Shown here: positions 4,305 through 16,774 of the stretch, piece after piece | Numbering within the stretch: the first letter of the stretch is position 1 | Layout of the letters: each line of letters opens with the position of its first letter | From: an uncultured Verrucomicrobiota bacterium | Lineage (GTDB): Bacteria; Verrucomicrobiota; Kiritimatiellia; CAIVKH01 | Assembly: GCA_964441655.1 (NCBI GenBank) | Contig: CAYTVN010000001.1 | Location: 1-58,705 of the forward strand | Direction of reading: 5' to 3' | Length of the DNA: 58,705 bases | Notes under the pieces: generated by a model | Databases searched by the model: none | What the model saw: the letters and a program-made list of their open reading frames with translations, nothing else | What the model was told of the DNA's origin: nothing | Position numbers and translations under genes: made by a program

Positions 4305-4524
4305 CGAAAGGCAAGGCAAGTGTCTATTCGGTCGAATGACCCGGAGGGCGAACAGCCCCATGGGAGCGCACCGCCGCAGGAGGCCCACCGGGCCGGCCGG
4401 TTTTCTTCCCGCCTGCCGCGCCGATCCGCGCATGCGGCGCGACAACAGAGGTCAAGCATACCGAGGAGTCGCCGCGCCATGGCACGCAATCGGCCGGCCG
4501 GGCCGGGATCTCCGGCGGGACATG

Positions 4525-5523
4525 TTAAGGGCTACGAACCTCCTCCGATATTTTCAGGTCGGTAAACAAATTCTGTTCAGGGTCAAACTCCACATTGCGG
4601 TCGTTCGGGGTGGGATTGAGGTAGTAGGTGAAACGAATCTTGCCCCCCGAACCTGAGTCACTCTCCCCGTATTCTATCGGCCCATAGATTTTCCCGTAGC
4701 GAGCGCTGACGATGTTCCCCTCGTCGTCGAGGACCGTTCGGACGCGGAACATCAGATAGGATGCGTCATTCAGCCTATCGTCTGTCAGCAGTCGCTCCAT
4801 CGTTGACGCCAAGGAAAAGATGAATTGCGGGTGATATCCATCGGTATCGGCCTCATAGGCGGAGCGGAAGTCGCTCCACAGCTCTTTGTCAGCTCGATAC
4901 AACCCGTTCATCTCATTGCGGCAAGCAATGACCAACTGATTTGAGAAAGTCCACGCGTCTTGAACTATCGCAGAGAAAGTAATAAACAAATCGCCCACTT
5001 CTCCGCGCCCATATGGAGCCACCCAGTCGCCAGCTTCAACGTCGTAGCCAACAGGCCCACCCCGCAGCGGGATTATTGCGTCAACGCGCTTGGCGTACAT
5101 GGCGATGGGCCGGCGGCGCTCCTTAAGGACAACAGAAATCGTTGGGTTCCATGGCTGCCACCGGCCATCCTTGACGGGTGATTCTCTTTGGGATTGGTTA
5201 AAGACGTATGTGCCCTCGGTATTGTAGTATCCTTCCTTCTTTATTGAGTACCGCATGTCTTCCACGGGGATACCTGCGGCAATAAAACACCCATTTGAAT
5301 CGGTTTTACCCTCAGCCACTTGGCCGCGCTTGTGTGGATTGTAAAACCCGGCATTCACATCTGCCGTCCTCACCGGAAGCCCACTGCTGTCTAGTACGCG
5401 AAGCGTAATCTCGCCCTCTACGCCATACTGTCTCGCCCTTATAACCTCGGGTGACTCCGCCTTAATTATCTCGGCACCCACCGCATAAGATATAAGCACT
5501 GCGGCTAAAAGAGGTTTATTCAT
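4525..5523 (-). CDS. Secreted paralog A of unknown family (N-terminal carboxypeptidase-regulatory-like beta-sandwich + conserved C-terminal YYLNPTPNDRN motif)
   Basis: Signal peptide MNKPLLAAVLISYAVGA. Motifs ITLRVLDSSGLPV, WQPWNPT, YGKIYGPIEYG, RFTYYLNPTPNDRNVEFDPEQNLFTDL. Clear paralog of 5760-6839 and 6904-7926. Confidence 0.8.
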   Translation of the reverse strand: MNKPLLAAVLISYAVGAEIIKAESPEVIRARQYGVEGEITLRVLDSSGLPVRTADVNAGFYNPHKRGQVAEGKTDSNGCFIAAGIPVEDMRYSIKKEGYYNTEGTYVFNQSQRESPVKDGRWQPWNPTISVVLKERRRPIAMYAKRVDAIIPLRGGPVGYDVEAGDWVAPYGRGEVGDLFITFSAIVQDAWTFSNQLVIACRNEMNGLYRADKELWSDFRSAYEADTDGYHPQFIFSLASTMERLLTDDRLNDASYLMFRVRTVLDDEGNIVSARYGKIYGPIEYGESDSGSGGKIRFTYYLNPTPNDRNVEFDPEQNLFTDLKISEEVRSP

Positions 5524-5759
5524 CTGAGGTTTACTCGCAAAACGATTTGGCCGAACAGATCGTAGGTGTAGAAAAAGGCCATGTTTTTGATGTCACTGTG
5601 AAGCCAAGCCTCAAGCAGAGGGGCTGCCAGCGGCTCGGTCGGTCCAGATTTAAGCCCGCCATCCGTGCCCGGGGGTGACCGGGGATGCCTATGACGGACA
5701 TACCGCAGGGCCGAGTCAAATATCCTCGCCTCGGTCAGACGAGCAAAAAGGATGCCATC
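5520..5759 (-). pseudogene. Fossil 3' end of a hydrolase (lipase-like) gene between paralogs B and A
   Basis: Own translation gives 79 stop-free codons ending ...LKSGPTEPLAAPLLEAWLHSDIKNMAFFYTYDLFGQIVLRVNLR*. This aligns with the C-terminus of the 7926-10412 protein (LKTGWPRSNENWHHSDFKNVAFLYVHQFFGDMVAEGDL*). Its TGA overlaps the ATG of paralog A. There is no start codon or upstream body. Confidence 0.7.
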
Positions 5760-6839
5760 CTAAGGCATCCAGACCTCCTCCGAAGACTTCAAGTCGGTAA
5801 ACAAATTCCGCTCGGGATCAAACTCCACATTGCGGTCGTTAGGAGTGGGGTTGAGGTAGTAGGTGAAACGAACCCCTCCACGGCCTTCATCGAAATTTCC
5901 GATTCGTCCAAATTCAATTGGGCCGTAGATTTTTCCGTATCGGGCGCCGATAATCGTGCCCTGCTCGTCGAGCATCGTGCGCACACGCAAAACAAGATTC
6001 TCATCCGCACCAAACAGCTCCTTTTTTAGGAATGTATCCTTGGTCATTTCAAGAGCCAGATCCACGCGCGCTGTATAGCCTTCAGTCGGCGCTTCATATA
6101 CGGACCGGAAATCGCTCCACATGTCATTTTGCGCACGGATAAGCCCATCCATTCTGCCGACACACTCAATGCTAAGCTCGCAGGAACCCGTCCAGAAATC
6201 CCGGGCATTTGTTTTGTATGTGAAAGACAGGTCCGCCCGCTTCCCGGCACCATGCGGCTCCACCCAGTCTCCGACCTCCAGATCAAACCCGACGGGGGAC
6301 TCACTAACCGGTATAGCCTCATCAACACTCCGGGCGTACATCGGAATGGCTCGGCGTCGTTCCTTCAGCACAAGCGTTAACATTGGATTCCAAGGCTGCC
6401 AGCGGCCGCTCCTAACACTGTTTTCTTGCTGATGATACAACCAGTATTCTCCCGAGGATGGGTTTGCGATAGACCCCCTACTTGCATCTAGACCGCTCGG
6501 CCGATAAAACCAGTATTTGCCCGCCGTCGTGTAATAATCATCTTTGCTAACAGTGTAATTCATGCGGTCGATAGTCTTGCCCGCAGCCACAAACAAGCCG
6601 TTGCTGTCAGTCAATCCTTCCGAAACAACGGCATCCGCGGCCAAATCCGAACCCCAAAAAGCCACACTTATCAACGCCTTCTCAACCGGCTTGCCGACAG
6701 AATCAACAACGCGTAGCGTGACCTGTCCTTGAGCGCCTCGGTGTCGCGCCTTCTCGATCTCCAGAGGCCCCGACCACAGATTCACCGCACACAGCCAGCA
6801 CAAGAGAAACGCAAGAGCAAAGGGGGAAACCCGATTCAT
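5760..6839 (-). CDS. Secreted paralog B of unknown family
   Basis: Signal peptide MNRVSPFALAFLLCWLCAV. Motifs VTLRVVDSVGKPV, WQPWNPM, YGKIYGPIEFG, RFTYYLNPTPNDRNVEFDPERNLFTDL. ATG 6839 preferred over the TTG at 6854. Confidence 0.8.
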   Translation of the reverse strand: MNRVSPFALAFLLCWLCAVNLWSGPLEIEKARHRGAQGQVTLRVVDSVGKPVEKALISVAFWGSDLAADAVVSEGLTDSNGLFVAAGKTIDRMNYTVSKDDYYTTAGKYWFYRPSGLDASRGSIANPSSGEYWLYHQQENSVRSGRWQPWNPMLTLVLKERRRAIPMYARSVDEAIPVSESPVGFDLEVGDWVEPHGAGKRADLSFTYKTNARDFWTGSCELSIECVGRMDGLIRAQNDMWSDFRSVYEAPTEGYTARVDLALEMTKDTFLKKELFGADENLVLRVRTMLDEQGTIIGARYGKIYGPIEFGRIGNFDEGRGGVRFTYYLNPTPNDRNVEFDPERNLFTDLKSSEEVWMP

Positions 6840-6903
6840 TGCAAACCTCCCCAAGAAACGATTTGGCTGAACAGATCGTAAGTGTAGAAGCAGTCAGGCC
6901 AAG
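6836..6903 (-). pseudogene. Short fossil of the hydrolase gene 3' end between paralogs C and B
   Basis: Own translation gives AWPDCFYTYDLFSQIVSWGGLQ*, with the TGA overlapping the paralog B ATG. It is 31/33 nt identical to the 5520-5759 fossil over FYTYDLF(G/S)QIV. Confidence 0.6.
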
Positions 6904-7926
6904 CTATGGATCGCGGACTTCCTCCAGTGGGGGCAGATTCGTAAAAAGATTCCGGGACGGATCGAACTCCATGTTCCGATCATTCGGCGTCGGATTCAGG
7001 TAATATGCAAAACGAAGCACACCTTTGGAACTGTACGCAATGTCTCCATATATCTTTCCGTACAAGGCCGTGATGATATTGCCTGAGTTATCTTTCTTCG
7101 TTCGCACACGAAAGAAGTAGTTCTGATCTTCACGCCTTTCGTGATGACTCTCTGCTTCATGCTCATACGAGCTCTTGACTAGAGCATTGCTGTAGCCGCT
7201 TTCCGCCGCAAACCGCGGGGACCGGAACGCGCTACCTTCGCGTGGATGCGAGAAGAACTCTTGGATGCCGTCCCCATCGTTAGCAAACACCACCGAAAAT
7301 TTTGCGTCATACATTGGCCCTCGATCAATTTTTCTCTGCCCTAAATCAGTAGTGTTGAGCTTGAATAAGAGATCGACGATTTCACCCTTCCCGTAGGGTG
7401 AAACCCAGTCGCTTATCATGAGGTCGAATCCTACAGTCTTGCTGAATTCCGGGAGTTGAAGGCGTGGTCTACTGTTGACGAAACTATGGGCAAACATCGG
7501 AATGGGATTAACCACCTCTTTGAGCAGTATATCGACCGTCGGATTCCACGGTTGCCATTGGTCTGCAAGTTGATTGGTGAAGAGGAGTGACCCTCCTCTA
7601 TCCATGTAGTAGACGGTATCGCCGAGCTCCATCTTGTTCATCCTGTCGAATACTCCGCTGACTGAGTACCGCACGCTACCAGTTTTACTCGGCAACTTGA
7701 GAACCACTAGGCCGTTTGTGTCCGTGACGCCGGTTACCCGATCATACTCGTCGCGACCAAACTCGGCGCCGGGGACCCAGCGCAAAAATGTGGACACGGT
7801 GACCGGGGCTCCGGCCACAACATTTCCGAAGTCATCTATCACCCTAAACGTCACCTGGGCATCCGGATCGCCCGCATGCGTCGCAACCGCCAACATCAAC
7901 AGAAGCGTTGAAAACCTCTTCTTCAT
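6904..7926 (-). CDS. Secreted paralog C of unknown family
   Basis: Signal peptide MKKRFSTLLLMLAVATHA. Motifs VTFRVIDDFGNVV, WQPWNPT, YGKIYGDIAY, RFAYYLNPTPNDRNMEFDPSRNLFTNL. Its ATG overlaps by 1 nt the TAA of the upstream hydrolase gene (TAATG). Confidence 0.8.
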   Translation of the reverse strand: MKKRFSTLLLMLAVATHAGDPDAQVTFRVIDDFGNVVAGAPVTVSTFLRWVPGAEFGRDEYDRVTGVTDTNGLVVLKLPSKTGSVRYSVSGVFDRMNKMELGDTVYYMDRGGSLLFTNQLADQWQPWNPTVDILLKEVVNPIPMFAHSFVNSRPRLQLPEFSKTVGFDLMISDWVSPYGKGEIVDLLFKLNTTDLGQRKIDRGPMYDAKFSVVFANDGDGIQEFFSHPREGSAFRSPRFAAESGYSNALVKSSYEHEAESHHERREDQNYFFRVRTKKDNSGNIITALYGKIYGDIAYSSKGVLRFAYYLNPTPNDRNMEFDPSRNLFTNLPPLEEVRDP

Positions 7927-10412
7927 TACAAATCTCCTTCGGCAACCATGTCCCCGAAGAACTGATGAACATACAGGAACGCCACGTTCTTGAAATCACT
8001 GTGATGCCAGTTCTCGTTTGATCGAGGCCATCCCGTTTTCAGCGTCATCAAGTCAACGTTCGCAGCGAAGAAATCTTCCACCTCGTTTCTCCCTGTCGCT
8101 CTAGACGATGCGGGGATCGCTTCTGCCAGTATCTTGCCCCGGACATTGGGTTCAGCCGCCAGAGCACTACCACCCGGCCCATAGAGAGCCTTGTCATAGA
8201 ACCGCTTGAAGAACGATTGAGTACGAAGCAGGTAGTCGGGCAACAACGCGGCTTCGTCCGGCGTAGTAGCCTTCACGAAAACGCCGTTGCTTGGGTCGTA
8301 GACGCCTCTGCTGTACGCGCCGTTGAAGCCCCACCCGCCGTGTGAATCGACACCAACTAGAACAGTTGGCAGGATGCCGCCTTTTACTTTCTCCTGAAAA
8401 ATCCACGCCTTTTCGGTCGCGGGCAAGTGCATGTTGCGTGGCGGATCGTTATTGTTCAGAACATCCTCACCGGAAGAGTAGTAATTGATCGCTCGTGAGA
8501 TATTTCCGAAACGCGCGCGCCAAGTCAGGTAATAACGACCGTCGGGCTCATCGAAAAGCTTGTACCAGTCCGCAGCCCAGACACGATTCGTGTACGAGGG
8601 CCAAGGCGACTCCTCTATTTCTAGCGGATGCCGAGCGGTGGCTTTGTACGCCTCCATTGCCACGGCGGCATCGATCATGAAGTAGCGCGCGAGATTGAGC
8701 CTGTGATCGATTATGGCGCTGGATGCAACCATATTGCCCAAGCTGTGAGCCGCCAGATATTTCTGTCCCGGTAACGCCGCCATGGATGAAGCCAACGCCG
8801 GAGCCGCTTGGAATGCATTTATGACGTCGGCGTGATAATATGCCCCCGGAGTAAGAACGCCCGGCGTTTCATCACCTTCCCACGTCACCGCCGTAAACAT
8901 CGCGCAGGAACCCGATTGAAACAGCCGCTTGAAGACTTCCGCGTTCCACCCGCGTGCGCCAGCTTCGGTTGTGTTAAATCCATGCACAAAGACAAACTGC
9001 TTCCCATTACAAATACTGTCTGGATAATTTGATGGCACTCCATCCTCCGTATGACGCGCTTCGCGACCACCTGTAACATGCCGCAAATTAATCCACCGAT
9101 ACATCTCCTCCACCCCGTCCACACTCAACGCCAGTTCGCGGCGGCCCAGCAAAGTCCCGCCTTTCCAGACTTCCAGGCGGAGGGGGGACGTGGTTTTTTT
9201 GGTGCCTTCCACCAGCAGTACACCCTTCTCCCGTTCGAGTCGGATGCGTGACAGGAATGACTCCGCAAGGGCTGTACCGGAGGCGTAAACGGCGAAAACT
9301 TCCGCCTCAAAGGACTTCTGATCAAGTTGCGGACCACACGAGGCAACGTCCGCAATCTGGTAGCGACCGGCTTTATTCCGCATGAGATCTGTGTACACGG
9401 CTTTGACGGCAATATCGCCCTGGCTCAGCTTGATGATGACCCCGTCGCCTTCGTGGATTTCGTCCACGACTTGTTTCACGTCCAGCCAGAGCGGAAAGAA
9501 ATCCAGCAGATCACAGCGGCCCGACACCCAGCCCTGACGACAATTCGCTTTTTCTCCAGCCCCGGGGATGTCCTGCTCGCCCTCGGAAACATCCCCGAGA
9601 TCCTGGTCGTCGTTGATCCAGATCCGGTAGGGATTCTCTTCCGTGATCTTGTCGCGATCATCATCACCAATCGCGCGATCACGATTTACGTCCGGCACCA
9701 GAGCCATATCCAACACCTTGACCAGCACGTCCGCATAACAACCGTTCGCATCCCAGACCATGATGGTGGTCTTCCCGGTTTTCACGCCGGTGACCAAGCC
9801 CTCCTGATCCACGTCGGCAATCTCGGTATCCCGACTTTTCCAGTAGTACGGCGGAGCACCTTCCGCGTGCAGCTGCAGGTTGGTCCCCAAAAATACATTG
9901 GTCCAGACACCCCAGAGATCGAGCTTGGTTACAGTTCGGCTGACCCAGCTGGTGGTCGCCGGCGGGGCACACTTCCGGTCCAGCCGTGTTACAAAACGGC
10001 ATTTGTATTCCTTGTTCGTAACACCCTGGCAAGAGGCCGCGGGGCCGGAACCCTGCGCTACGATTTTCTTCTGGCACCAGATGGTCCACGTGTATTCGGG
10101 AACAACCGGCGCGATGTACTGGTCAATGTACAGGGGCGGGCACACCTCGGGATGGCGATAGACAATGACTTTCTGGTTGTGGGCGCCCTCGTCGGTGAGC
10201 TCGACCGGTACCAGGAAATTAACGGTTTCGTTCAGGCAGACCGGATCGCTGGAATTCTCGTTGAATTTCTCCGTTATGTCGTTGGAACAATCGGTTTCGT
10301 ATTGCCCGCGATAGCGGCACCCGTGCCGATCCATCCCGTCCATCGCCGTCGCCGTCAGCACGCCAAAGGCGCCCAGCGCAAGCAACGCCGCTAAACATCG
10401 GCTGGCTTTCAT
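7926..10412 (-). CDS. Secreted multidomain protein: Big_2-like Ig domain + acidic middle region + C-terminal alpha/beta-hydrolase (lipase/esterase-like)
   Basis: Signal peptide MKASRCLAALLALGAFGVLTATA. Big_2-like LQLHAEGAPPYYWKSRDTEIADVDQEGLVTGVKTGKTTIMVWD. Hydrolase motifs FVFVHGFN and AAHSLGNMV (A-H-S-x-G nucleophile elbow). Start at ATG 10412 forms an ATGA overlap with the upstream gene. The 98-aa Arg/Gly-rich extension in the track ORF was rejected. Confidence 0.8.
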   Translation of the reverse strand: MKASRCLAALLALGAFGVLTATAMDGMDRHGCRYRGQYETDCSNDITEKFNENSSDPVCLNETVNFLVPVELTDEGAHNQKVIVYRHPEVCPPLYIDQYIAPVVPEYTWTIWCQKKIVAQGSGPAASCQGVTNKEYKCRFVTRLDRKCAPPATTSWVSRTVTKLDLWGVWTNVFLGTNLQLHAEGAPPYYWKSRDTEIADVDQEGLVTGVKTGKTTIMVWDANGCYADVLVKVLDMALVPDVNRDRAIGDDDRDKITEENPYRIWINDDQDLGDVSEGEQDIPGAGEKANCRQGWVSGRCDLLDFFPLWLDVKQVVDEIHEGDGVIIKLSQGDIAVKAVYTDLMRNKAGRYQIADVASCGPQLDQKSFEAEVFAVYASGTALAESFLSRIRLEREKGVLLVEGTKKTTSPLRLEVWKGGTLLGRRELALSVDGVEEMYRWINLRHVTGGREARHTEDGVPSNYPDSICNGKQFVFVHGFNTTEAGARGWNAEVFKRLFQSGSCAMFTAVTWEGDETPGVLTPGAYYHADVINAFQAAPALASSMAALPGQKYLAAHSLGNMVASSAIIDHRLNLARYFMIDAAVAMEAYKATARHPLEIEESPWPSYTNRVWAADWYKLFDEPDGRYYLTWRARFGNISRAINYYSSGEDVLNNNDPPRNMHLPATEKAWIFQEKVKGGILPTVLVGVDSHGGWGFNGAYSRGVYDPSNGVFVKATTPDEAALLPDYLLRTQSFFKRFYDKALYGPGGSALAAEPNVRGKILAEAIPASSRATGRNEVEDFFAANVDLMTLKTGWPRSNENWHHSDFKNVAFLYVHQFFGDMVAEGDL

Positions 10413-12637
10413 ACCTCGCCATCCCAGCGCGCGATGTCCTCCAGCACTTCCTCTCGATATTCCACGAAGCGCTCCCGCTCCGCGCCGTTCAGCGGGAGTT
10501 GATCCAGCTGGAGGCCAACGGCCAGCAGCGCGGCTTTGCCAACGATGGCTTGATCCAAACGCAAGCCGGGATCGGACCCCAGAATGGCGCGAATCTGCTG
10601 CACCGCCACCGCCACGGCGGCCAGGTCGCCGCGCCGGTAATCCAGCATCGCGAGCCACAGGTGCGCGATGGCACAGCGGGCATGCCCGGGCAGCAGGGTT
10701 ACGCAATCCCGGAAACAGCGCGCCGCATCCCCCGCGCGACCCGGCTTACCCATCAGCCACTGGCCGTAGGAAATCCCCACCTGGACGCGGCCCACCGATG
10801 GCGTTCCAAGGTCCGTCAACAGACGGCGCGCCCACGCCTCGCCCTCCCCGTCCCGATCCAGAAACCAGCAGGCCTCCAGCAAGTAGGCTTGATATTCCCA
10901 GTATTGTTCCTTCTCGGACCAAAGCTGATCCCGGTCCGCAGGCGTGAGTCGTTCCCAGCGCCGCAGCGCCGCCTCGCAGCGACCAAAGTCGCCCACCTGC
11001 CGGCGCGTCAACAGGAACAGCAGGTTCAGACGAACCGATGGATGAAGGGCCGAACCCAGACGCTCCGTGATTTTGGCCTCGCCAAGGTCGAGCACCTGGT
11101 TGGCCAGCGCATCATCCACCAACCGCAGCTGCCGCGCCGTGTCGAGCACCAGCTCCACGTTGGTGCTGGCCGCCAAGGCTTCCATTAACTCACGCCGCCA
11201 GACGCCATCGCCCGGCAACGTGCCCGCTTTCACCAGACAGCGAATCCATTCCAGCTTCGCCTGGATCCGAAACCGCTCGGGACTTTGCGGCGATGCCGCG
11301 TAGCGCTGATACCACGCAGCCGCCGCACCCGGCCGACCCCGCTGGACCTCCAACCGCGCTCGCGCCCACACCGCGCGCCCCCAGCCGGTTGAACCAACGG
11401 GTTCGTTGGCAACCGCCCGTTGAAAAAGGTCTGCGGCACGATCCTGTTCCCCGGCCACAACCAGCACCCGGGCCAAGCCGTGGTATATCCGCGTGGCGAA
11501 GGCGGCTCCAAACCGACGCCGCCCGTCCGCCACCCAATCCTCCACGGGCGTCGCTCGCTTTTGCGCCAGCAACGCGCGCAGGCGTATTTTGGAAACGGCC
11601 AACCACTCCAATGCGCTCACCGTGGGATCGCGCAGAAACGCGTGGGCCAGCTCCAACTGCTCCCCGGGGGCGCGCACCTCACTCACCGCAGAGGCCAGGA
11701 GCATTTTATGCAGTTCCGCCGCCGCGACCGGAAAGACCGCAGCTTCCGCCGCGAGCCAGGTCCGGGCCACGCTCCGCCACTGGCGCATATCGCGCTTCCG
11801 CAACTCGCGCACGATCAACCCCACCGCGCGAGCCCGTACCGAGGGTTTGGCTTGCGACAAGCCCGCGAGCAAATTCTCGCTGATTTGCCAGCCCCCCTGC
11901 GCCCGGCGCGCCGCAATCAGCGTAGCCCAGCCCGCCAGCGTCTTGGCCCCGAACGCGCCATTGCGGATGGACTTCGCGGCCAGATCGTAGGCCCGCATGT
12001 ATTCTTTCTCGGCCAGTGCGATGCAGGCCATTCCCTGGTGGGCACGACACGCGCCCTGCGGATGAAGGGCCATGGCCTGGTGGTAGAATTCCGCGGCCGC
12101 CCCCAGCTCGCCCTCCTGCAAAAACAAAGTGCCCATGCGGGTGGCCACCACGCCAAAACGCGGAGGTCGCGGCCCGACCCGAAGCTGTCCCGCCGCGCTC
12201 AACGCGCGCTCGGCTGTCTGGATGGAGGCCTGAAATGCATCCTCCTTGTAGCGGGCCAACTGGCAGGCATGCCGGGCCATCACCAGCGCGTCGTCGAGCA
12301 GTCCGCTTTTGAGCAAAGCCCGAACCTGGCCCACCGCGGGTCGCAGCCAGAGAGTATGATGCGCCAGCGCGCGGGTTCCGGCTTGGGTGTAAATCTGCGC
12401 GGCCGCCCCGAAATCACCGCGCTTGAATTCGCTGTCCGCGACCTGACCGAGCAGCCGGGATTCCAGCGCGCGATCACCCCCCGCGGTCTCCAACTCCCGG
12501 TTCACCCGCGTCAGCGCATGCGCGTAGCGATGATGCTGCACGAGGCGCGCGATTTCGCGCAGGGTGACCGATAATTTCTTGCGATCGTTAGGTTCTTGTC
12601 CGGCTCGTTTTCGGTACTTGATTCTCTTGGTTTTCAT
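10409..12637 (-). CDS. Cytoplasmic all-alpha TPR-like repeat protein
   Basis: 742 aa, Ala/Leu/Arg-rich, with repeated helix-pair patterns (e.g. FKRGDFGAAAQIYTQA, YMRAYDLAAKSI, DRAADLFQRAVA, YRRGDLAAVAVAVQQI). No signal peptide and a basic N-terminus MKTKRIKYRKR. High GC, unlike the downstream genes. Confidence 0.6.
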   Translation of the reverse strand: MKTKRIKYRKRAGQEPNDRKKLSVTLREIARLVQHHRYAHALTRVNRELETAGGDRALESRLLGQVADSEFKRGDFGAAAQIYTQAGTRALAHHTLWLRPAVGQVRALLKSGLLDDALVMARHACQLARYKEDAFQASIQTAERALSAAGQLRVGPRPPRFGVVATRMGTLFLQEGELGAAAEFYHQAMALHPQGACRAHQGMACIALAEKEYMRAYDLAAKSIRNGAFGAKTLAGWATLIAARRAQGGWQISENLLAGLSQAKPSVRARAVGLIVRELRKRDMRQWRSVARTWLAAEAAVFPVAAAELHKMLLASAVSEVRAPGEQLELAHAFLRDPTVSALEWLAVSKIRLRALLAQKRATPVEDWVADGRRRFGAAFATRIYHGLARVLVVAGEQDRAADLFQRAVANEPVGSTGWGRAVWARARLEVQRGRPGAAAAWYQRYAASPQSPERFRIQAKLEWIRCLVKAGTLPGDGVWRRELMEALAASTNVELVLDTARQLRLVDDALANQVLDLGEAKITERLGSALHPSVRLNLLFLLTRRQVGDFGRCEAALRRWERLTPADRDQLWSEKEQYWEYQAYLLEACWFLDRDGEGEAWARRLLTDLGTPSVGRVQVGISYGQWLMGKPGRAGDAARCFRDCVTLLPGHARCAIAHLWLAMLDYRRGDLAAVAVAVQQIRAILGSDPGLRLDQAIVGKAALLAVGLQLDQLPLNGAERERFVEYREEVLEDIARWDGEV

Positions 12638-12792
12638 CGGCGTCAACCCGCCTCCTACGGGTTTCGCCCCCAACCGCACTCCCAAATTAAGGCCGTTGAC
12701 CCTGGCACCACGCAGGCATCCAAGGCTACCGGCCACGGTCGTCGGATTGCCGGACTAGAAGGGACTACCGCCCGTAATCTCCGACGACGACT

Positions 12793-13996: not shown

Positions 13997-16774
13997 GTGA
14001 GGAAAATAGCATTAACGCGCACCCCAAGGGCATCCATGGTTTGGATCGCCCTCTTGAGCGCCTCCTGCGCAGCGCTCGCGGGATCGCCCACCGGGTGGAC
14101 CACGGGCGGAAAATCTGTGCTGGTGCTACCCGTTGATTTCACCGACAGCCCGGCCCCGGCGCCACCCCCCGAAGGGTGGACAACTGTAATGGAGCGGGTC
14201 AACCAGTTCTATCTGCTTCAATCCTACGGCCAGGCGTGGTTCAGCACGTCGGTGGTTGCTCCGGTGATCCATATGGGCGTTTCGTGGACCAACTATGTCC
14301 CGTACTCCAACTGGAAAACCTCCGCCTTTCTGCCAGACATCCGGGCCAAGGCAAAGCTGGCCGGTTACGATACCGATGATTTCGATCTGGAAGTATTTCA
14401 CCTGCGGCTGACCAACGAAGCGCCCGTAGGCATCGCGCTGCACGGCGGCAAAGGCTGCTGGCTGAACTTCACCAATGGCTACCCGCGCTTCGCCCTGGCC
14501 ACGGCGCACGAACTGGGCCACAACTTCGGACTGTTTCATACCCGGGCCTTCTCCGCGGCCAACTACGCCGTCTTCCCGATCGCGAAATACGGATTCTTCT
14601 GGGATGAGTACGGCGGAATGTTCGACACGATGGGCTCCGGCACGACGAACCTGCAGGCGGACTTCTGTGTGTACAACAAGAACTTTCTGGGCTGGATTCC
14701 CGATTCGCAGATCGCACGCCCCACCACGTCCGGCGTCTATCGCATTCATGCCTTCGACCAAGGAACAATCACGCCCGCCCTGTTCTACGGCATGAAGATC
14801 GAGCGCGACCCGAACAACGATTACTGGTTCGAATTCCGCCAAGCCTTCACCAACAACCTCTGGAGCATGAACGGCCTGCTGATCTACTGGGGCGGCGATG
14901 CCGCGTCGGTGTCCATCGGTGGGCCGATGCTGTTGGACATGACGCCGGGAAGCCGCGGGCTGGATGATCCCGAGCCGAACCGCGCCCCGGGAGCCACCAT
15001 ACTCGATGCACCCCTCGTGCTTGGCCGAACCTATTCTGACCCCGCCGTAAACCTGCATGTCACACCGCTTCGCAAAGGAGGGACCGTTCCGGAATCGCTC
15101 GATCTCGCCGTCCGCTTCGGTCCGTTCCCAACCAATCATCCCCCGACCGTTTCGCTTACGGCGACCAATCTCGCGCCAGCCACGAGCCAGCTGGTGCACT
15201 TCGCCGTCGCGGCCAGTGATCCGGACGGCGACCCGCTGGCGTATTACTGGGAATTTGACGATCCGGGCGCGGCCCGCGGCGCGGGGTTGGTGCCGTTCGG
15301 CGCCGGGTCTCCGAATCCGGATGCCATGCTCGCCACCGAGGCTGGACAGGCCTGGGCCAGCAGCGGTGTGTATCAGGTGCGCTGCACCGTCACCGACCTG
15401 AAGGGCGGTCAGGCTACGGCCGCCGCGCTGGTAACGGTCGGAAGCGGGGACGGCATCACCATTACAGGCACCGTGAAAGACGAGCAGGACCAGCCGCTCG
15501 CGGGAGCGATCGTAAGCAACTGGAAAAACACCAATCCCAACGCGGTAACGTTCGGGAACTCCAACCTGTTCGTGTCTTCCGAAACCGCCTCCAATGGACA
15601 CTACATTCTCCGCGTAAAACCCAACTCCACCAACCTGCTCCGAGCCCACGCCAAAGGCCGCGCCTTCATCTGCAACACGCCCGGCGGATCAACCACGGGC
15701 ACGGTGGTCGTGGGCGGCTCCAGCATCACCAACGTGAACTTCGTACGCACCACGAACCTGTGGACCATCAGCGGCTCGACGTTGCTGGCCGGCAACAGCG
15801 GGATTTACCAGCCCTCCACCCAGGGTCCGATCACCATTCAGGAATCCTTTTCCGGGCAGGAAACAAATGTCACCACCAACGGCACCTGGCAGATGACCGT
15901 CCCGGACGGACCGGTCGCCCTCTCTTTTATCGCCCCCACAAATTACGTGATCCGCTACAACCTCCCGAATCCGTACGACGTGAACGACCACTTCAATCTG
16001 TTCACCTTTTTCGTGGACGTACCCGGCGCGGTTTCCTACGAGGGCTTCGGCTCTGCATCGGACAGCGGAGATGGCAGCGCCGGCCTGGTCAATATCCCCG
16101 TGGTTCTTACCTTGCCGACGGGCTACACCAACAGCACGTGGCCGCCCAACCTCTGGATCGGCGCCGTCGTAGACGCGCGCAGCACGGCCTCCTACGGCCT
16201 CGACTACCGGCTCAACGGCATGGAAATCACCTTCACGAACTACACCTCGATCTTCACCAACCAGATCGCCCTGCAGCTCCGGCCCAATTCCTCAACGAAC
16301 AGCCGGACCATCGTGCTGCACCTCGACGCCTTTAACGCCGGGGCCAACCTCGGCGGGATCCAAACGTATACCTACGCCATCATCCCGCCCGGCGCGGATG
16401 CCGACGGCGACAGCCTGCCCGACTGGTGGGAGTGGCAGTTTTCGCAGAGCTTCACCAATCTGGCTCCGGAGCTGGACGATGATGCCGATCAGGTCGTCAA
16501 CCGGGACGAGTTTGCCGCCGACACCGACCCCGAGAATGCCGCATCCAAACTCGACATCCACGCGCTGCACTATTTGCCGGGTGGCGTTCAGCTTCAGTGG
16601 ACGGGCGGAACGCAGGCTGTGCAATTTATCGAATGCCGGCTGAACCTTCTGGATCCGGCTGAAGCCTGGACCACGATCCATACCAATCTGCCACCCACCT
16701 CACCCACCCCGAGCTTCCTCGCGCCCGAAACCACAAATCCATCGGCCTACTTTCGAATCCGGGCCGTGCGTTAG
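13997..16774 (+). CDS. Large secreted zinc metalloprotease (metzincin HEXXHXXGXXH) with PKD-like, carboxypeptidase-regulatory-like and TSP3-like modules
   Basis: Active site ATAHELGHNFGLFH. DPDGDPLAYYWEFDD (PKD-like), ITITGTVKDEQDQPLAGAIVSN, DADGDSLPDWWEW. The start may be ATG 14036 (MVWIALLSASCAALAGS signal peptide). Confidence 0.8.
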   Translation: MRKIALTRTPRASMVWIALLSASCAALAGSPTGWTTGGKSVLVLPVDFTDSPAPAPPPEGWTTVMERVNQFYLLQSYGQAWFSTSVVAPVIHMGVSWTNYVPYSNWKTSAFLPDIRAKAKLAGYDTDDFDLEVFHLRLTNEAPVGIALHGGKGCWLNFTNGYPRFALATAHELGHNFGLFHTRAFSAANYAVFPIAKYGFFWDEYGGMFDTMGSGTTNLQADFCVYNKNFLGWIPDSQIARPTTSGVYRIHAFDQGTITPALFYGMKIERDPNNDYWFEFRQAFTNNLWSMNGLLIYWGGDAASVSIGGPMLLDMTPGSRGLDDPEPNRAPGATILDAPLVLGRTYSDPAVNLHVTPLRKGGTVPESLDLAVRFGPFPTNHPPTVSLTATNLAPATSQLVHFAVAASDPDGDPLAYYWEFDDPGAARGAGLVPFGAGSPNPDAMLATEAGQAWASSGVYQVRCTVTDLKGGQATAAALVTVGSGDGITITGTVKDEQDQPLAGAIVSNWKNTNPNAVTFGNSNLFVSSETASNGHYILRVKPNSTNLLRAHAKGRAFICNTPGGSTTGTVVVGGSSITNVNFVRTTNLWTISGSTLLAGNSGIYQPSTQGPITIQESFSGQETNVTTNGTWQMTVPDGPVALSFIAPTNYVIRYNLPNPYDVNDHFNLFTFFVDVPGAVSYEGFGSASDSGDGSAGLVNIPVVLTLPTGYTNSTWPPNLWIGAVVDARSTASYGLDYRLNGMEITFTNYTSIFTNQIALQLRPNSSTNSRTIVLHLDAFNAGANLGGIQTYTYAIIPPGADADGDSLPDWWEWQFSQSFTNLAPELDDDADQVVNRDEFAADTDPENAASKLDIHALHYLPGGVQLQWTGGTQAVQFIECRLNLLDPAEAWTTIHTNLPPTSPTPSFLAPETTNPSAYFRIRAVR

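What the first reader, a model, noticed from the sequence alone, without database searches (positions are those of the whole stretch)
5520..6903. Each downstream paralog is preceded by a fossil of the hydrolase gene's 3' end, including the stop/start overlap
The spacer upstream of paralog A (5520-5759) is a 79-codon stop-free frame with no start codon. It ends LKSGPTEPLAAPLLEAWLHSDIKNMAFFYTYDLFGQIVLRVNLR*. This aligns with the C-terminus of the intact hydrolase, LKTGWPRSNENWHHSDFKNVAFLYVHQFFGDMVAEGDL*. By hand count, about 37/60 nt are identical over HSD...V, with the same HSDxKNxAFxY...FGxxV pattern. The spacer upstream of paralog B (6836-6903) retains AWPDCFYTYDLFSQIVSWGGLQ* and is 31/33 nt identical to the first fossil. 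In both fossils the TGA overlaps the ATG of the following paralog (ATGA), mirroring the TAATG junction of the intact pair. The ancestral repeated unit was therefore [hydrolase + partner], and the hydrolase body was later deleted from two units, leaving orphan partner genes. This is the signature of orphan modules in polymorphic toxin/immunity loci, and it argues that the hydrolase and paralog function as a pair. The 5520-5759 fossil is also in the same frame as paralog B, directly after its TAG.
Basis: seen in the sequence. Interest (0 to 1): 0.75.

Follow-up and report, generated by a model that had tools for sequence, protein, structure and literature searches.

The report
Orphan partner genes with hydrolase-tail fossils
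Two of three tandem secreted-protein genes are each preceded by the leftover last codons of a lost hydrolase gene, which exposes an undescribed swap-and-discard hydrolase/partner cassette system, most likely toxin and immunity, that is widespread in Verrucomicrobia-like bacteria.

Summary
Both spacers end in hydrolase C-terminal codons, and the stop overlaps the next gene's ATG. Fossil 1 vs the resident hydrolase tail gives z=13 (38/60 nt). Fossil 1 vs fossil 2 gives 31/33 nt.

Four refinements:
- Only the last ~30 codons of the 79-codon frame are demonstrably hydrolase-derived. The first 62 nt are the partner gene's 3' flank, with a terminator-like hairpin over paralog B's TAG.
- The fossils come from a different hydrolase clade ("clade II") than the resident gene. 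Paralogs A and B are the partner type that accompanies clade II.
- In a sister contig, identity to the window is 86.5% up to the motif MYRWINLR and falls to about 40% (protein) after it. That contig carries a clade II domain and a B-like partner.
- Of 105 partner genes surveyed in PVC bacteria, 47 follow a full hydrolase. Another 21 follow 5'-truncated remnants that all keep the 3' end, some starting exactly at the junction motif.

This is C-terminal cassette displacement with orphan modules, as in CDI and Rhs loci, in a protein family I found undescribed. Toxin/immunity function is inferred, not shown. TAG readthrough is unsupported.

The parts
10409..12736 (-). TPR-repeat protein gene. Its 5' end is uncertain. 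Its TGA overlaps the hydrolase ATG (ATGA). It is a lineage-specific upstream accessory gene.
   Evidence: Pfam TPR_14 and TPR_16 hits. ATGA overlap. Directly upstream of only 4 of 43 intact pairs.
7926..10412 (-). Hydrolase gene, 828 aa. Order of parts: Sec-type signal peptide (judged by eye from MKASRCLAALLALGAFGVLTATA), Ig-like Big_2 region, conserved pre-toxin region, junction motif, alpha/beta-hydrolase C-terminal domain.
   Evidence: Pfam Big_2 and Abhydrolase_6. 85 homologues share the C-terminal ~600 aa behind variable N-termini. AF2 model pLDDT 93.5. Foldseek finds only weak esterase/lipase matches.
9081..9104 (-). Junction motif MYRWINLR (residues 437-444). It marks the boundary between the constant N-terminal part and the exchangeable CT cassette.
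   Evidence: Identity to sister contig L002 is 86.5% (DNA) up to 9081. Protein identity drops from about 85% to about 40% exactly here. The orphan CT in L009 begins at ..VYRWINLRH.
7929..9080 (-). Clade I alpha/beta-hydrolase CT domain. Ser557 lies in AHSLGN (8744-8742). His804 lies in WHHSD (8003-8001). Both columns are invariant in the family alignment.
   Evidence: Invariant columns S324 and H571 of alignment A2, mapped to window coordinates.
6904..7926 (-). Paralog C, the cognate partner of the resident hydrolase. 340 aa, signal peptide, all-beta. TAATG stop/start overlap with the hydrolase.
   Evidence: AF2 pLDDT 91.9; no PDB fold match (TMq<=0.23). 77% identical to the orphan partner p2 of L001, with dN/dS 0.12.
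6836..6889 (-). Fossil 2: the last 17 codons plus stop of a clade II hydrolase (FYTYDLFSQIVSWGGLQ*). It carries a GGAGG Shine-Dalgarno, and its TGA overlaps the ATG of paralog B.
   Evidence: 14/17 residues match P0041. The same DNA aligns with the L002 and L003 hydrolase-tail/partner-start junctions.
5760..6839 (-). Paralog B, an orphan partner of type II (359 aa).
   Evidence: 51% identical to the partner of clade II hydrolase P0047 (L003). 54% identical to the 37 visible residues of the L002 partner. Only 41% identical to paralog C.
5698..5770 (-). 3' flank of the partner cassette, with a terminator-like hairpin (GGAUGCC-UUAGGAU-GGCAUCC followed by U5) that spans paralog B's TAG. It is not hydrolase-derived.
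   Evidence: dG -19.1 kcal/mol, z=-2.4. The flank is repeated at 96% identity after paralog A in strain L013.
5613..5697 (-). Spacer of unknown origin. It may be fully decayed hydrolase sequence, but it has no significant similarity to anything tested.
5520..5612 (-). Fossil 1: the last 30 codons plus stop of a clade II hydrolase (EAWLHSDIKNMAFFYTYDLFGQIVLRVNLR*), including the catalytic-His motif. Its TGA overlaps the ATG of paralog A. The Shine-Dalgarno is degraded.
   Evidence: Best matches are P0050 (score 115) and P0047 and P0036 (106 each), against 78 for the resident hydrolase.
4525..5523 (-). Paralog A, an orphan partner of type II (332 aa).
   Evidence: 46% identical to the L003 partner and 51% to paralog B. 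It keeps all invariant family residues. 8 synonymous against 15 non-synonymous base differences (11 codons) vs strain L013.

Best explanation
The locus encodes a secreted modular hydrolase. The parts run in this order: signal peptide, variable N-terminal region, conserved pre-toxin region, motif MYRWINLR, then a roughly 385-aa Ser/His alpha/beta-hydrolase C-terminal (CT) domain. The CT domain and the translationally coupled downstream partner gene form one exchangeable cassette.

Shown: new CT+partner cassettes enter by recombination at the junction motif. The previous cassette ends up downstream without its N-terminal part. The orphaned CT is then whittled away from its 5' side, while the partner gene survives together with the last hydrolase codons, which carry the partner's ribosome-binding site and the overlapping stop/start. 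In this window a clade I CT plus paralog C is the active pair. Paralogs B and A are orphans of two older clade II cassettes, whose hydrolases are reduced to 17 and 30 codons.

Inferred: the hydrolase is an esterase/lipase-type toxin that acts outside the cytoplasm. The partners are exported cognate immunity or inhibitor proteins. Orphans are retained because they protect against clade II hydrolases made by neighbouring cells.
For: Fossils are real hydrolase tails:
- Statistical support.
- They match clade II tails better than the resident tail.

Fossil type and partner type agree:
- Paralogs A and B are closest to partners of clade II hydrolases.
- Among 42 intact pairs from other loci, the two whose partner is most similar to A and B (L003, L015) are the same two whose hydrolase tail is most similar to fossil 1.

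Cassette boundary:
- Sister contig L002 is 86.5% identical in DNA to the window through the TPR gene and hydrolase residues 1-444. Protein identity then falls to about 40% exactly after MYRWINLR. L002 ends in a clade II tail and a B-like partner start, which aligns with window 6889-6743.

Decay series in other genomes:
- L009 has an orphan CT that starts at ..YRWINLRH, followed by a partner.
- L011 has a 720-aa truncated hydrolase plus partner, then a roughly 50-codon fossil ending ...LYTYELFNQIVSQGGLQ* that overlaps the ATG of a B-like orphan.
- L001 is syntenic with the window. It carries a fossil ...NENWRHSDLKKVAFQYVHHFFEDMVFGGDLQ* followed by a paralog C-like orphan.

Survey of 105 partner genes:
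- 47 follow a full hydrolase.
- 21 follow 5'-truncated remnants, all of which keep the 3' end.
- 24 have no remnant detectable by HMM, but at least 7 of these show short tail remnants by eye.

Co-inheritance and selection:
- Partner vs CT Mantel r=0.75, partial r=0.66. Partner vs pre-toxin region partial r=0.07.
- dN/dS between paired paralog C and the orphan p2 of L001 is 0.12.
- Arrays hold divergent partners, mostly 33-58% identical (two arrays reach 66% and 81%).

Context:
- Low-GC island at 4500-10500.
- Mobile-element genes lie nearby in related loci.
- The known parallel is orphan cdiA-CT modules that start at the VENN motif and are thought to be displaced by incoming pairs (PMC9086364).
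Against: - No toxicity, enzymatic or binding data exist. The substrate is unknown, and Foldseek gives only generic esterase/lipase matches with TMq ~0.15.
- All exchangeable CT domains belong to one homologous fold, unlike classical polymorphic toxins.
- The partner is large (330-360 aa) and carries a family-wide invariant polar motif, YYLNPTPNDRNxEFDP. That is unusual for immunity proteins.
- No dedicated secretion apparatus lies in any inspected neighbourhood.
- Between near-identical strains the orphans show relaxed-looking change: paralog B 2 synonymous vs 5 non-synonymous differences, paralog A 8 synonymous vs 15 non-synonymous base differences (11 codons).
- Paralog A has lost its Shine-Dalgarno, so it may be decaying.
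- No intact source gene close to the A or B cassettes was found.
Confidence: 0.72

Rival explanations
1. The pair is a nutritional or surface-remodelling exo-hydrolase with a dedicated exported helper (a chaperone, activator or anchor). It is not a toxin-immunity pair. Orphan partners are non-functional relics on their way to loss.
For: - N-terminal Ig-like, TSP3 and LTD domains are typical of surface enzymes.
- The partner has an invariant polar motif that suggests a conserved biochemical role.
- Orphans A and B show a high share of non-synonymous differences between strains.
- Paralog A has lost its Shine-Dalgarno.
Against: - Orphan partners are intact ORFs that keep all invariant residues.
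- They are common: at least 45 of 105 surveyed partner genes.
- They sit in arrays of divergent types.
- dN/dS is 0.12 on the C/p2 lineage.
- Remnants always keep the partner's translation-initiation region.
- The all-beta partner fold is unlike the helical lipase foldases, as I recall them.
Confidence: 0.18
2. Only one hydrolase body was ever lost here. The second orphan arose later, by duplication of an already orphaned unit (tail fossil + partner + 3' flank). So the two fossils are copies of each other and do not record two separate displacements.
For: - Fossils 1 and 2 share a sharply bounded 34-nt patch at 32/34 identity. Each is only 23-26/34 identical to other clade II tails.
- The 62-nt 3' flank is repeated after both B and A in strain L013.
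- The last 30 codons of A and B have 63-70% third-position identity.
Against: - Across most of A vs B the third positions are saturated (20-47% identity) and protein identity is 51%.
- A duplication old enough for that divergence cannot leave a neutral 34-nt patch at 94% identity without later gene conversion.
- The flanks of the patch are unrelated.
Confidence: 0.15
3. The conserved pre-ATG sequence is a regulatory or translation-initiation element of the partner genes, and it resembles hydrolase tails only by convergence.
For: The hydrolase C-terminal codons (GGLQ, EGDL) encode the partner's Shine-Dalgarno (GGAGG, AAGGAG), and the stop overlaps the start.
Against: - Similarity extends 30 codons upstream through the WLHSD catalytic-His motif, in the hydrolase reading frame.
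- Related loci show a continuous series from full CT domains down to short tails.
- Fossil 1 has lost the Shine-Dalgarno yet keeps the coding similarity.
Confidence: 0.03

Closest known systems
Orphan cdiA-CT/cdiI modules of contact-dependent inhibition loci
   Same: - A constant N-terminal part and an exchangeable CT domain, demarcated by a short conserved motif (VENN there, MYRWINLR here).
- A cognate gene immediately downstream.
- Displaced modules downstream that lack a start codon and begin at the motif (PMC9086364; compare L009).
- Orphan partner genes retained.
   Different: - No CdiB/two-partner secretion gene and no FHA repeats.
- All CT domains share one fold.
- Both proteins carry Sec signal peptides.
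- The partner is a 330-360 aa all-beta protein.
- Found in the PVC superphylum.
Rhs/YD-repeat toxins with orphan rhs-CT/rhsI cassettes
   Same: Displacement of CT+immunity cassettes, 5'-truncated orphan fragments and mobile elements interleaved with them (own knowledge of the Rhs literature).
   Different: No YD repeats, no Rhs core and no PxxxxDPxGL motif. No T6SS linkage was seen.
T6SS lipase effectors Tle1-4 with periplasmic Tli immunity proteins, and orphan-immunity arrays
   Same: A serine alpha/beta-hydrolase effector (AHSLG here, a variant of GxSxG), an exported partner encoded next to it, and arrays of orphan partner genes.
   Different: - No DUF2235-type domain hit.
- No VgrG, PAAR or Hcp genes in the inspected neighbourhoods.
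- A Sec signal peptide on the hydrolase itself.
Tox-ABhydrolase-1/2/3 polymorphic toxin domains (Zhang et al. 2012, PMC3482391)
   Same: Alpha/beta-hydrolase domains at the C-termini of polymorphic toxins, predicted to be lipases, with adjacent immunity genes.
   Different: - Those pair with the SUKH, Imm66 and Imm69 immunity families and with T6SS or other trafficking domains.
- The partner family here has no Pfam or NCBIfam model for its C-terminal domain.
- I could not test sequence membership in those three toxin families.

Membership tests
Polymorphic toxin system (architecture class) | Secreted multidomain protein with a constant N-terminal part and a strain-variable C-terminal domain, separated by a sharp recombination boundary | tested here: met
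   Window vs L002: 86.5% DNA identity up to MYRWINLR, then about 40% protein identity. A signal peptide is visible in the sequence. Homologues have variable N-termini.
Polymorphic toxin system (architecture class) | Cognate partner gene immediately downstream that co-varies with the CT domain | tested here: met
   47 of 105 partner genes follow a full hydrolase directly, and the inspected junctions overlap stop and start. Mantel r=0.75, partial r=0.66.
Polymorphic toxin system (architecture class) | Downstream orphan CT/partner cassettes lacking the N-terminal part | tested here: met
   L009, L008, L011, L024 and others; 21 truncated remnants. The window holds two such orphans, reduced to short tails.
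Polymorphic toxin system (architecture class) | The CT domain is toxic and the partner neutralises it specifically | not testable with these tools
   Needs expression and competition experiments.
Polymorphic toxin system (architecture class) | CT domains of diverse, unrelated folds at the same position | tested here: not met
   Every CT domain recovered is the same alpha/beta-hydrolase family with invariant Ser and His.
T6SS Tle/Tli lipase effector-immunity | Tle family domain (DUF2235 or another Tle family) and genetic linkage to vgrG/PAAR/T6SS genes | tested here: not met
   Pfam gives only Abhydrolase_6, with DUF900 in some homologues. No T6SS family appears among the called neighbours. The rest of the genome was not examined.
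Lipase / lipase-specific foldase (Lif) pair | The partner is a membrane-anchored, largely alpha-helical foldase (recalled from memory, not checked here) | tested here: not met
   The AF2 model of paralog C is all-beta behind a signal peptide (pLDDT 91.9). No foldase match in the PDB search.
CDI (CdiA/CdiB/CdiI) | CdiB transporter, FHA/TPS domain and VENN pre-toxin motif | tested here: not met
   No such Pfam hits in the hydrolase or its neighbours. The junction motif here is MYRWINLR.

The most novel reading that the evidence does not exclude
The cassette ends are actively kept alike while the cores diverge. A 34-nt patch of the hydrolase tail is 94% identical between the two fossils. The partner 3' end plus a 62-nt hairpin flank is 88-96% identical between units. 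Meanwhile the A and B cores are saturated at synonymous sites. This would mean the tail fossils are not just debris. They would serve as homology arms for gene conversion or cassette shuffling, building and reshuffling an immunity repertoire in a homologous-recombination analogue of an integron array. Separately, the partner's invariant NPTPNDRNxEFD motif could mean it has a biochemical activity of its own and is not a passive inhibitor.
Probability: 0.15. Interest if true: 0.7.

Novelty: new member of a known kind. Interest (0 to 1): 0.55.

Why it matters
**A new effector/partner family.**
- The fossils point to a large hydrolase/partner family that I could not find described.
- The partner has more than 1100 relatives at 90% clustering. 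It matches 291 places among GTDB species genomes; the best 80 are mostly Kiritimatiellota, Verrucomicrobiota and Lentisphaerota.
- These phyla have almost no characterised interbacterial effectors.

**What it offers for experiments.**
- A defined recombination boundary (MYRWINLR).
- A partner fold with no solved relative.
- A natural decay series from full cassette to 17-codon fossil.
- Cognate and non-cognate pairs for testing specificity.

**Use in annotation.** Short hydrolase-tail remnants upstream of these partner genes mark orphan immunity-like genes in metagenome-assembled genomes.

**Limit.** The principle itself, orphan modules from cassette displacement, is already known from CDI and Rhs systems.

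Tried and rejected
- **Whole 79-codon frame as hydrolase fossil: rejected.** The upstream 51 codons score no better than shuffles against any tail. The first 62 nt are the partner cassette's 3' flank.
- **TAG readthrough of paralog B: rejected as unsupported.** A hairpin plus U-tract spans the stop. The frame match has a one-in-three chance.
- **Fossils as copies of the resident hydrolase tail: rejected**.
- **Global rank correlation between partner similarity and fossil similarity over 42 pairs: not significant**. Only the closest pairs are informative.
- **Sequence search of the PDB for hydrolase and partner:** nothing below E=0.25.
- **Foldseek of the partner model:** only the N-terminal beta-sandwich matches, TMq<=0.23.
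- **Search for the source of the A and B cassettes:** the exact 34-nt patch has 0 hits in metagenome contigs. The best relative of paralog A there is 46% identical.
- **Source record look-up for the window's hydrolase:** not on record. The organism is therefore inferred only from relatives, as Kiritimatiellota-like.
- **Literature searches:** none found a description of this family.
- **TPR gene as a universal component: rejected.** It sits directly upstream of only 4 of 43 intact pairs.
Full report
**Anatomy.** All relevant genes lie on the minus strand, in this order:
- a TPR-repeat gene (10409-12736);
- the hydrolase (7926-10412, 828 aa);
- paralog C (6904-7926);
- a 64-nt spacer;
- paralog B (5760-6839);
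- a 236-nt spacer;
- paralog A (4525-5523);
- then TetR, a membrane-fusion protein and ABC transporter genes.

The TPR stop overlaps the hydrolase ATG (ATGA). The hydrolase stop overlaps paralog C's ATG (TAATG). The block 4500-10500 has GC of 0.48-0.59, against about 0.65 on both sides.

**Checking the observation.**
- Fossil 1 vs the resident hydrolase tail: protein Smith-Waterman score 78 against shuffles of 23 +/- 4 (z=13), DNA z=7.6, and 38/60 nt over HSD...V.
- Fossil 1 vs fossil 2: 31/33 nt, or 32/34, with z=20.
- Both fossils end in a TGA that overlaps the next ATG.
- On its own, fossil 2 is not significantly similar to the resident hydrolase (protein z=2.7).
- Only the last ~30 codons of the 79-codon frame (5520-5612) are significantly hydrolase-like. 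The upstream 51 codons are not (z<=1.7).

**What the proteins are.**
- The hydrolase has a Sec-type signal peptide, a Big_2 Ig-like domain and an Abhydrolase_6 match.
- It has 85 homologues. They share the C-terminal ~600 residues behind very different N-termini (Big_2, TSP3, LTD and others).
- In the family alignment, Ser in AHSLGN and His in WxHSD are invariant. In this gene they are Ser557 and His804. The His motif lies inside the region that fossil 1 preserves.
- The AF2 model is confident (pLDDT 93.5). Its only PDB matches are generic esterases and lipases at low TM-score.
- The partners are signal-peptide-bearing all-beta proteins. They have a weak CarboxypepD_reg-like N-terminal domain and a C-terminal domain with no Pfam or NCBIfam model.
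- The partner AF2 model has pLDDT 91.9 and no fold match.
- The partner family has 1167 relatives at E<=1e-3 and an invariant motif, YYLNPTPNDRNxEFDP.

**The fossils come from another hydrolase clade.**
- I ranked all 85 homologue tails against fossil 1. The top matches are P0050 (115), P0036 and P0047 (106 each), P0041 (102) and P0003 (101). The resident hydrolase scores 78 and ranks 15th.
- These top-ranked "clade II" proteins end ...RWLHSDLK(D/N)MAYFYT(Y/H)(D/E)LF(D/N)QIVSQGGLQ*.
- Fossil 2 matches P0041 at 14 of 17 residues.
- The clade II junction DNA is ...CTGCAATGA, the same type as in both fossils.
- Partner types agree with this. Paralog B is 51% and paralog A 46% identical to the partner of clade II hydrolase P0047. 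Paralog C is only 38% identical to it.
- Among 42 intact pairs from other loci, the two with the partner most similar to A and B (L003, L015) are the same two with the tail most similar to fossil 1.

**The same locus in relatives.**

| Contig | Source | Relation to the window |
|---|---|---|
| L002 | ENA, 5 kb | 86.5% DNA identity from the TPR gene to window position 9081, the end of motif MYRWINLR. Protein identity falls from about 85% to about 40% there. Continues with a clade II CT domain and a partner start resembling paralog B. This stretch aligns with window 6889-6743. |
| L001 | Logan, 20 kb | Fully syntenic. Holds a hydrolase plus partner, then a Y1 transposase, then a fossil PRTPNENWRHSDLKKVAFQYVHHFFEDMVFGGDLQ* overlapping the ATG of an orphan 77% identical to paralog C. 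This block matches window 8020-6903 at 78% identity. |
| L013 | Logan | 98.7% identical to the window. Same C / fossil 2 / B / fossil 1 / A order. |

**A decay series elsewhere.**
- In L009 (a Kiritimatiellae MAG), the main gene carries a clade II CT domain and its partner. An orphan clade I CT follows, whose reading frame begins ..VYRWINLRH just 37 nt after the partner's stop, and then its own partner.
- L007/L008 hold hydrolase fragments of 239, 310 and 413 aa. The 239- and 413-aa fragments are each followed directly by a partner. The fragments are interleaved with integrase/primase repeats.
- L011 holds three units in a row: a full pair, a 720-aa truncated hydrolase with partner, and a roughly 50-codon clade II fossil overlapping the ATG of a B-like orphan.

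**Survey.** I built HMMs of the hydrolase and the partner and searched all fetched loci. These included 80 loci, mostly from Kiritimatiellota, Verrucomicrobiota and Lentisphaerota genomes. For 105 non-redundant, near-complete partner genes:

| What lies directly upstream | Count |
|---|---|
| Full conserved hydrolase region | 47 |
| 5'-truncated remnant, always keeping the 3' end | 21 |
| No remnant detected by HMM | 24 |
| Undecidable because of contig ends | 13 |

- The 21 truncated remnants break down as 4 starting at or near the junction motif, 8 starting inside the CT domain, 8 that are tails only, and 1 starting inside the pre-toxin region.
- At least 7 of the 24 "none" cases show short tail remnants by eye. 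Window fossil 2 falls in this class.
- Arrays of up to five divergent partners occur, mostly 33-58% identical (two arrays reach 66% and 81%).

**Co-inheritance.** Over 43 intact pairs:
- Partner distance correlates with CT distance (Mantel r=0.75, 0 of 2000 permutations as high).
- The partial correlation is 0.66 after removing the pre-toxin region.
- Partner vs pre-toxin region is 0.07 after removing CT.

So the unit of inheritance is CT+partner, and the break lies at the junction motif.

**Selection.**
- dN/dS between paired paralog C and the orphan p2 of L001 is 0.12, similar to neighbouring genes.
- Between the window and the 98.7%-identical strain L013, paralog B differs at 2 synonymous and 5 non-synonymous sites. 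Paralog A differs at 8 synonymous and 15 non-synonymous bases (11 codons).
- These counts are small. They fit relaxed or diversifying selection.
- Paralog A has also lost the Shine-Dalgarno. In intact pairs this is encoded by the hydrolase's last codons.

**The rest of spacer 1.**
- The 62 nt after paralog B's stop (5759-5698) recur at 96% identity after paralog A's stop in L013, but not in the window.
- They contain a 7-bp GC-rich hairpin plus U5 that spans B's TAG (dG -19.1 kcal/mol, z=-2.4).
- This argues against readthrough. It also shows that the start of the "79-codon frame" is the cassette's 3' flank.
- The stretch 5613-5697 matches nothing tested.

**Interpretation.**
- The evolutionary part is well supported: cassette displacement at a junction motif, followed by 5'-to-3' erosion of the orphaned hydrolase and retention of the partner.
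- It parallels orphan cdiA-CT/cdiI modules, which start at the VENN motif and are thought to be displaced by incoming pairs (PMC9086364).
- It also fits the alpha/beta-hydrolase polymorphic toxins predicted by Zhang et al. (PMC3482391).
- The functional part, an exported esterase/lipase toxin with exported immunity proteins, is inference.
- The family departs from the classical pattern in four ways. All CT domains share one fold. The partner is large and carries an invariant polar motif. No dedicated secretion system was seen nearby. No Tle, CDI or Rhs hallmark is present.
- Literature searches found no description of this family.

**Unexplained.**
- The two fossils share a sharply bounded 34-nt patch at 94% identity. 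Each is only 23-26/34 identical to other clade II tails.
- Paralogs A and B are saturated at third positions except in their last 30 codons.
- Gene conversion or recombination at the cassette boundaries is the simplest reading, but I did not test it.

Noticed in passing
window 4500-10500: The hydrolase/partner block is a low-GC island (0.48-0.59) set in sequence of about 0.65 GC. This suggests horizontal acquisition.
   Followed up: partly
window 5750-5770 (minus strand): A terminator-like hairpin (7-bp GC-rich stem followed by U5) has its loop on paralog B's TAG stop codon.
   Followed up: yes
window 5540-5573 vs 6856-6889: The two fossils share a sharply bounded 34-nt patch at 32/34 identity, while the adjoining partner genes are saturated at synonymous sites. 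This may be a gene-conversion tract or a recombination arm.
   Followed up: partly
window 4359-4553 vs L013 2538-2629: The two strains are 98.7% identical overall but differ by a replacement right after paralog A. L013 carries the same 62-nt hairpin flank found after paralog B, and the window does not. The last codons of paralog A also differ.
   Followed up: partly
window 7929-7945, 6840-6856, 5524-5540: The last hydrolase codons (EGDL, GGLQ) double as the partner's Shine-Dalgarno (AAGGAG, GGAGG). Fossil 1 has lost it (CGAGTAAACCTCAG).
   Followed up: partly
window 10409-10412: The upstream TPR-protein gene is translationally coupled to the hydrolase (ATGA). This TPR gene lies directly upstream of only 4 of 43 intact pairs.
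   Followed up: yes
window 4525-5523 vs L013: Paralog A carries 23 base differences in 971 nt between near-identical strains (8 synonymous, 15 non-synonymous), with 12 of them in codons 21-121. Paralog B carries 7 differences in 1080 nt.
   Followed up: partly
window 13997-16774 (+): A 925-aa secreted protein with a reprolysin-like zinc-metallopeptidase motif, a PKD domain and a CarboxypepD_reg-like domain lies just outside the island.
   Followed up: no
L003 7826-11920 (also L004-L006): A clade II hydrolase is split into 723-aa and 639-aa ORFs by a single stop. The same arrangement recurs on the four contigs shown, out of 13 read that carry the 639-aa ORF (two are labelled anaerobic digester). 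IS110 and a serine recombinase lie nearby.
   Followed up: no
L001 13652-14599: A Y1 (IS200/IS605-type) transposase gene sits between the active pair and the orphan module in the syntenic locus.
   Followed up: no
L007/L008 (one 222-kb contig): A resolvase-fragment / HTH / primase / two-integrase block occurs at least twice (partner copies about 11.6 kb apart), interleaved with hydrolase fragments and partners.
   Followed up: no
partner family (alignment A1): The family has an invariant polar motif YYLNPTPNDRNxEFDPxxNLF plus invariant D168, D173 and W174. This is unusual for an immunity family and hints at a conserved binding or catalytic site.
   Followed up: no
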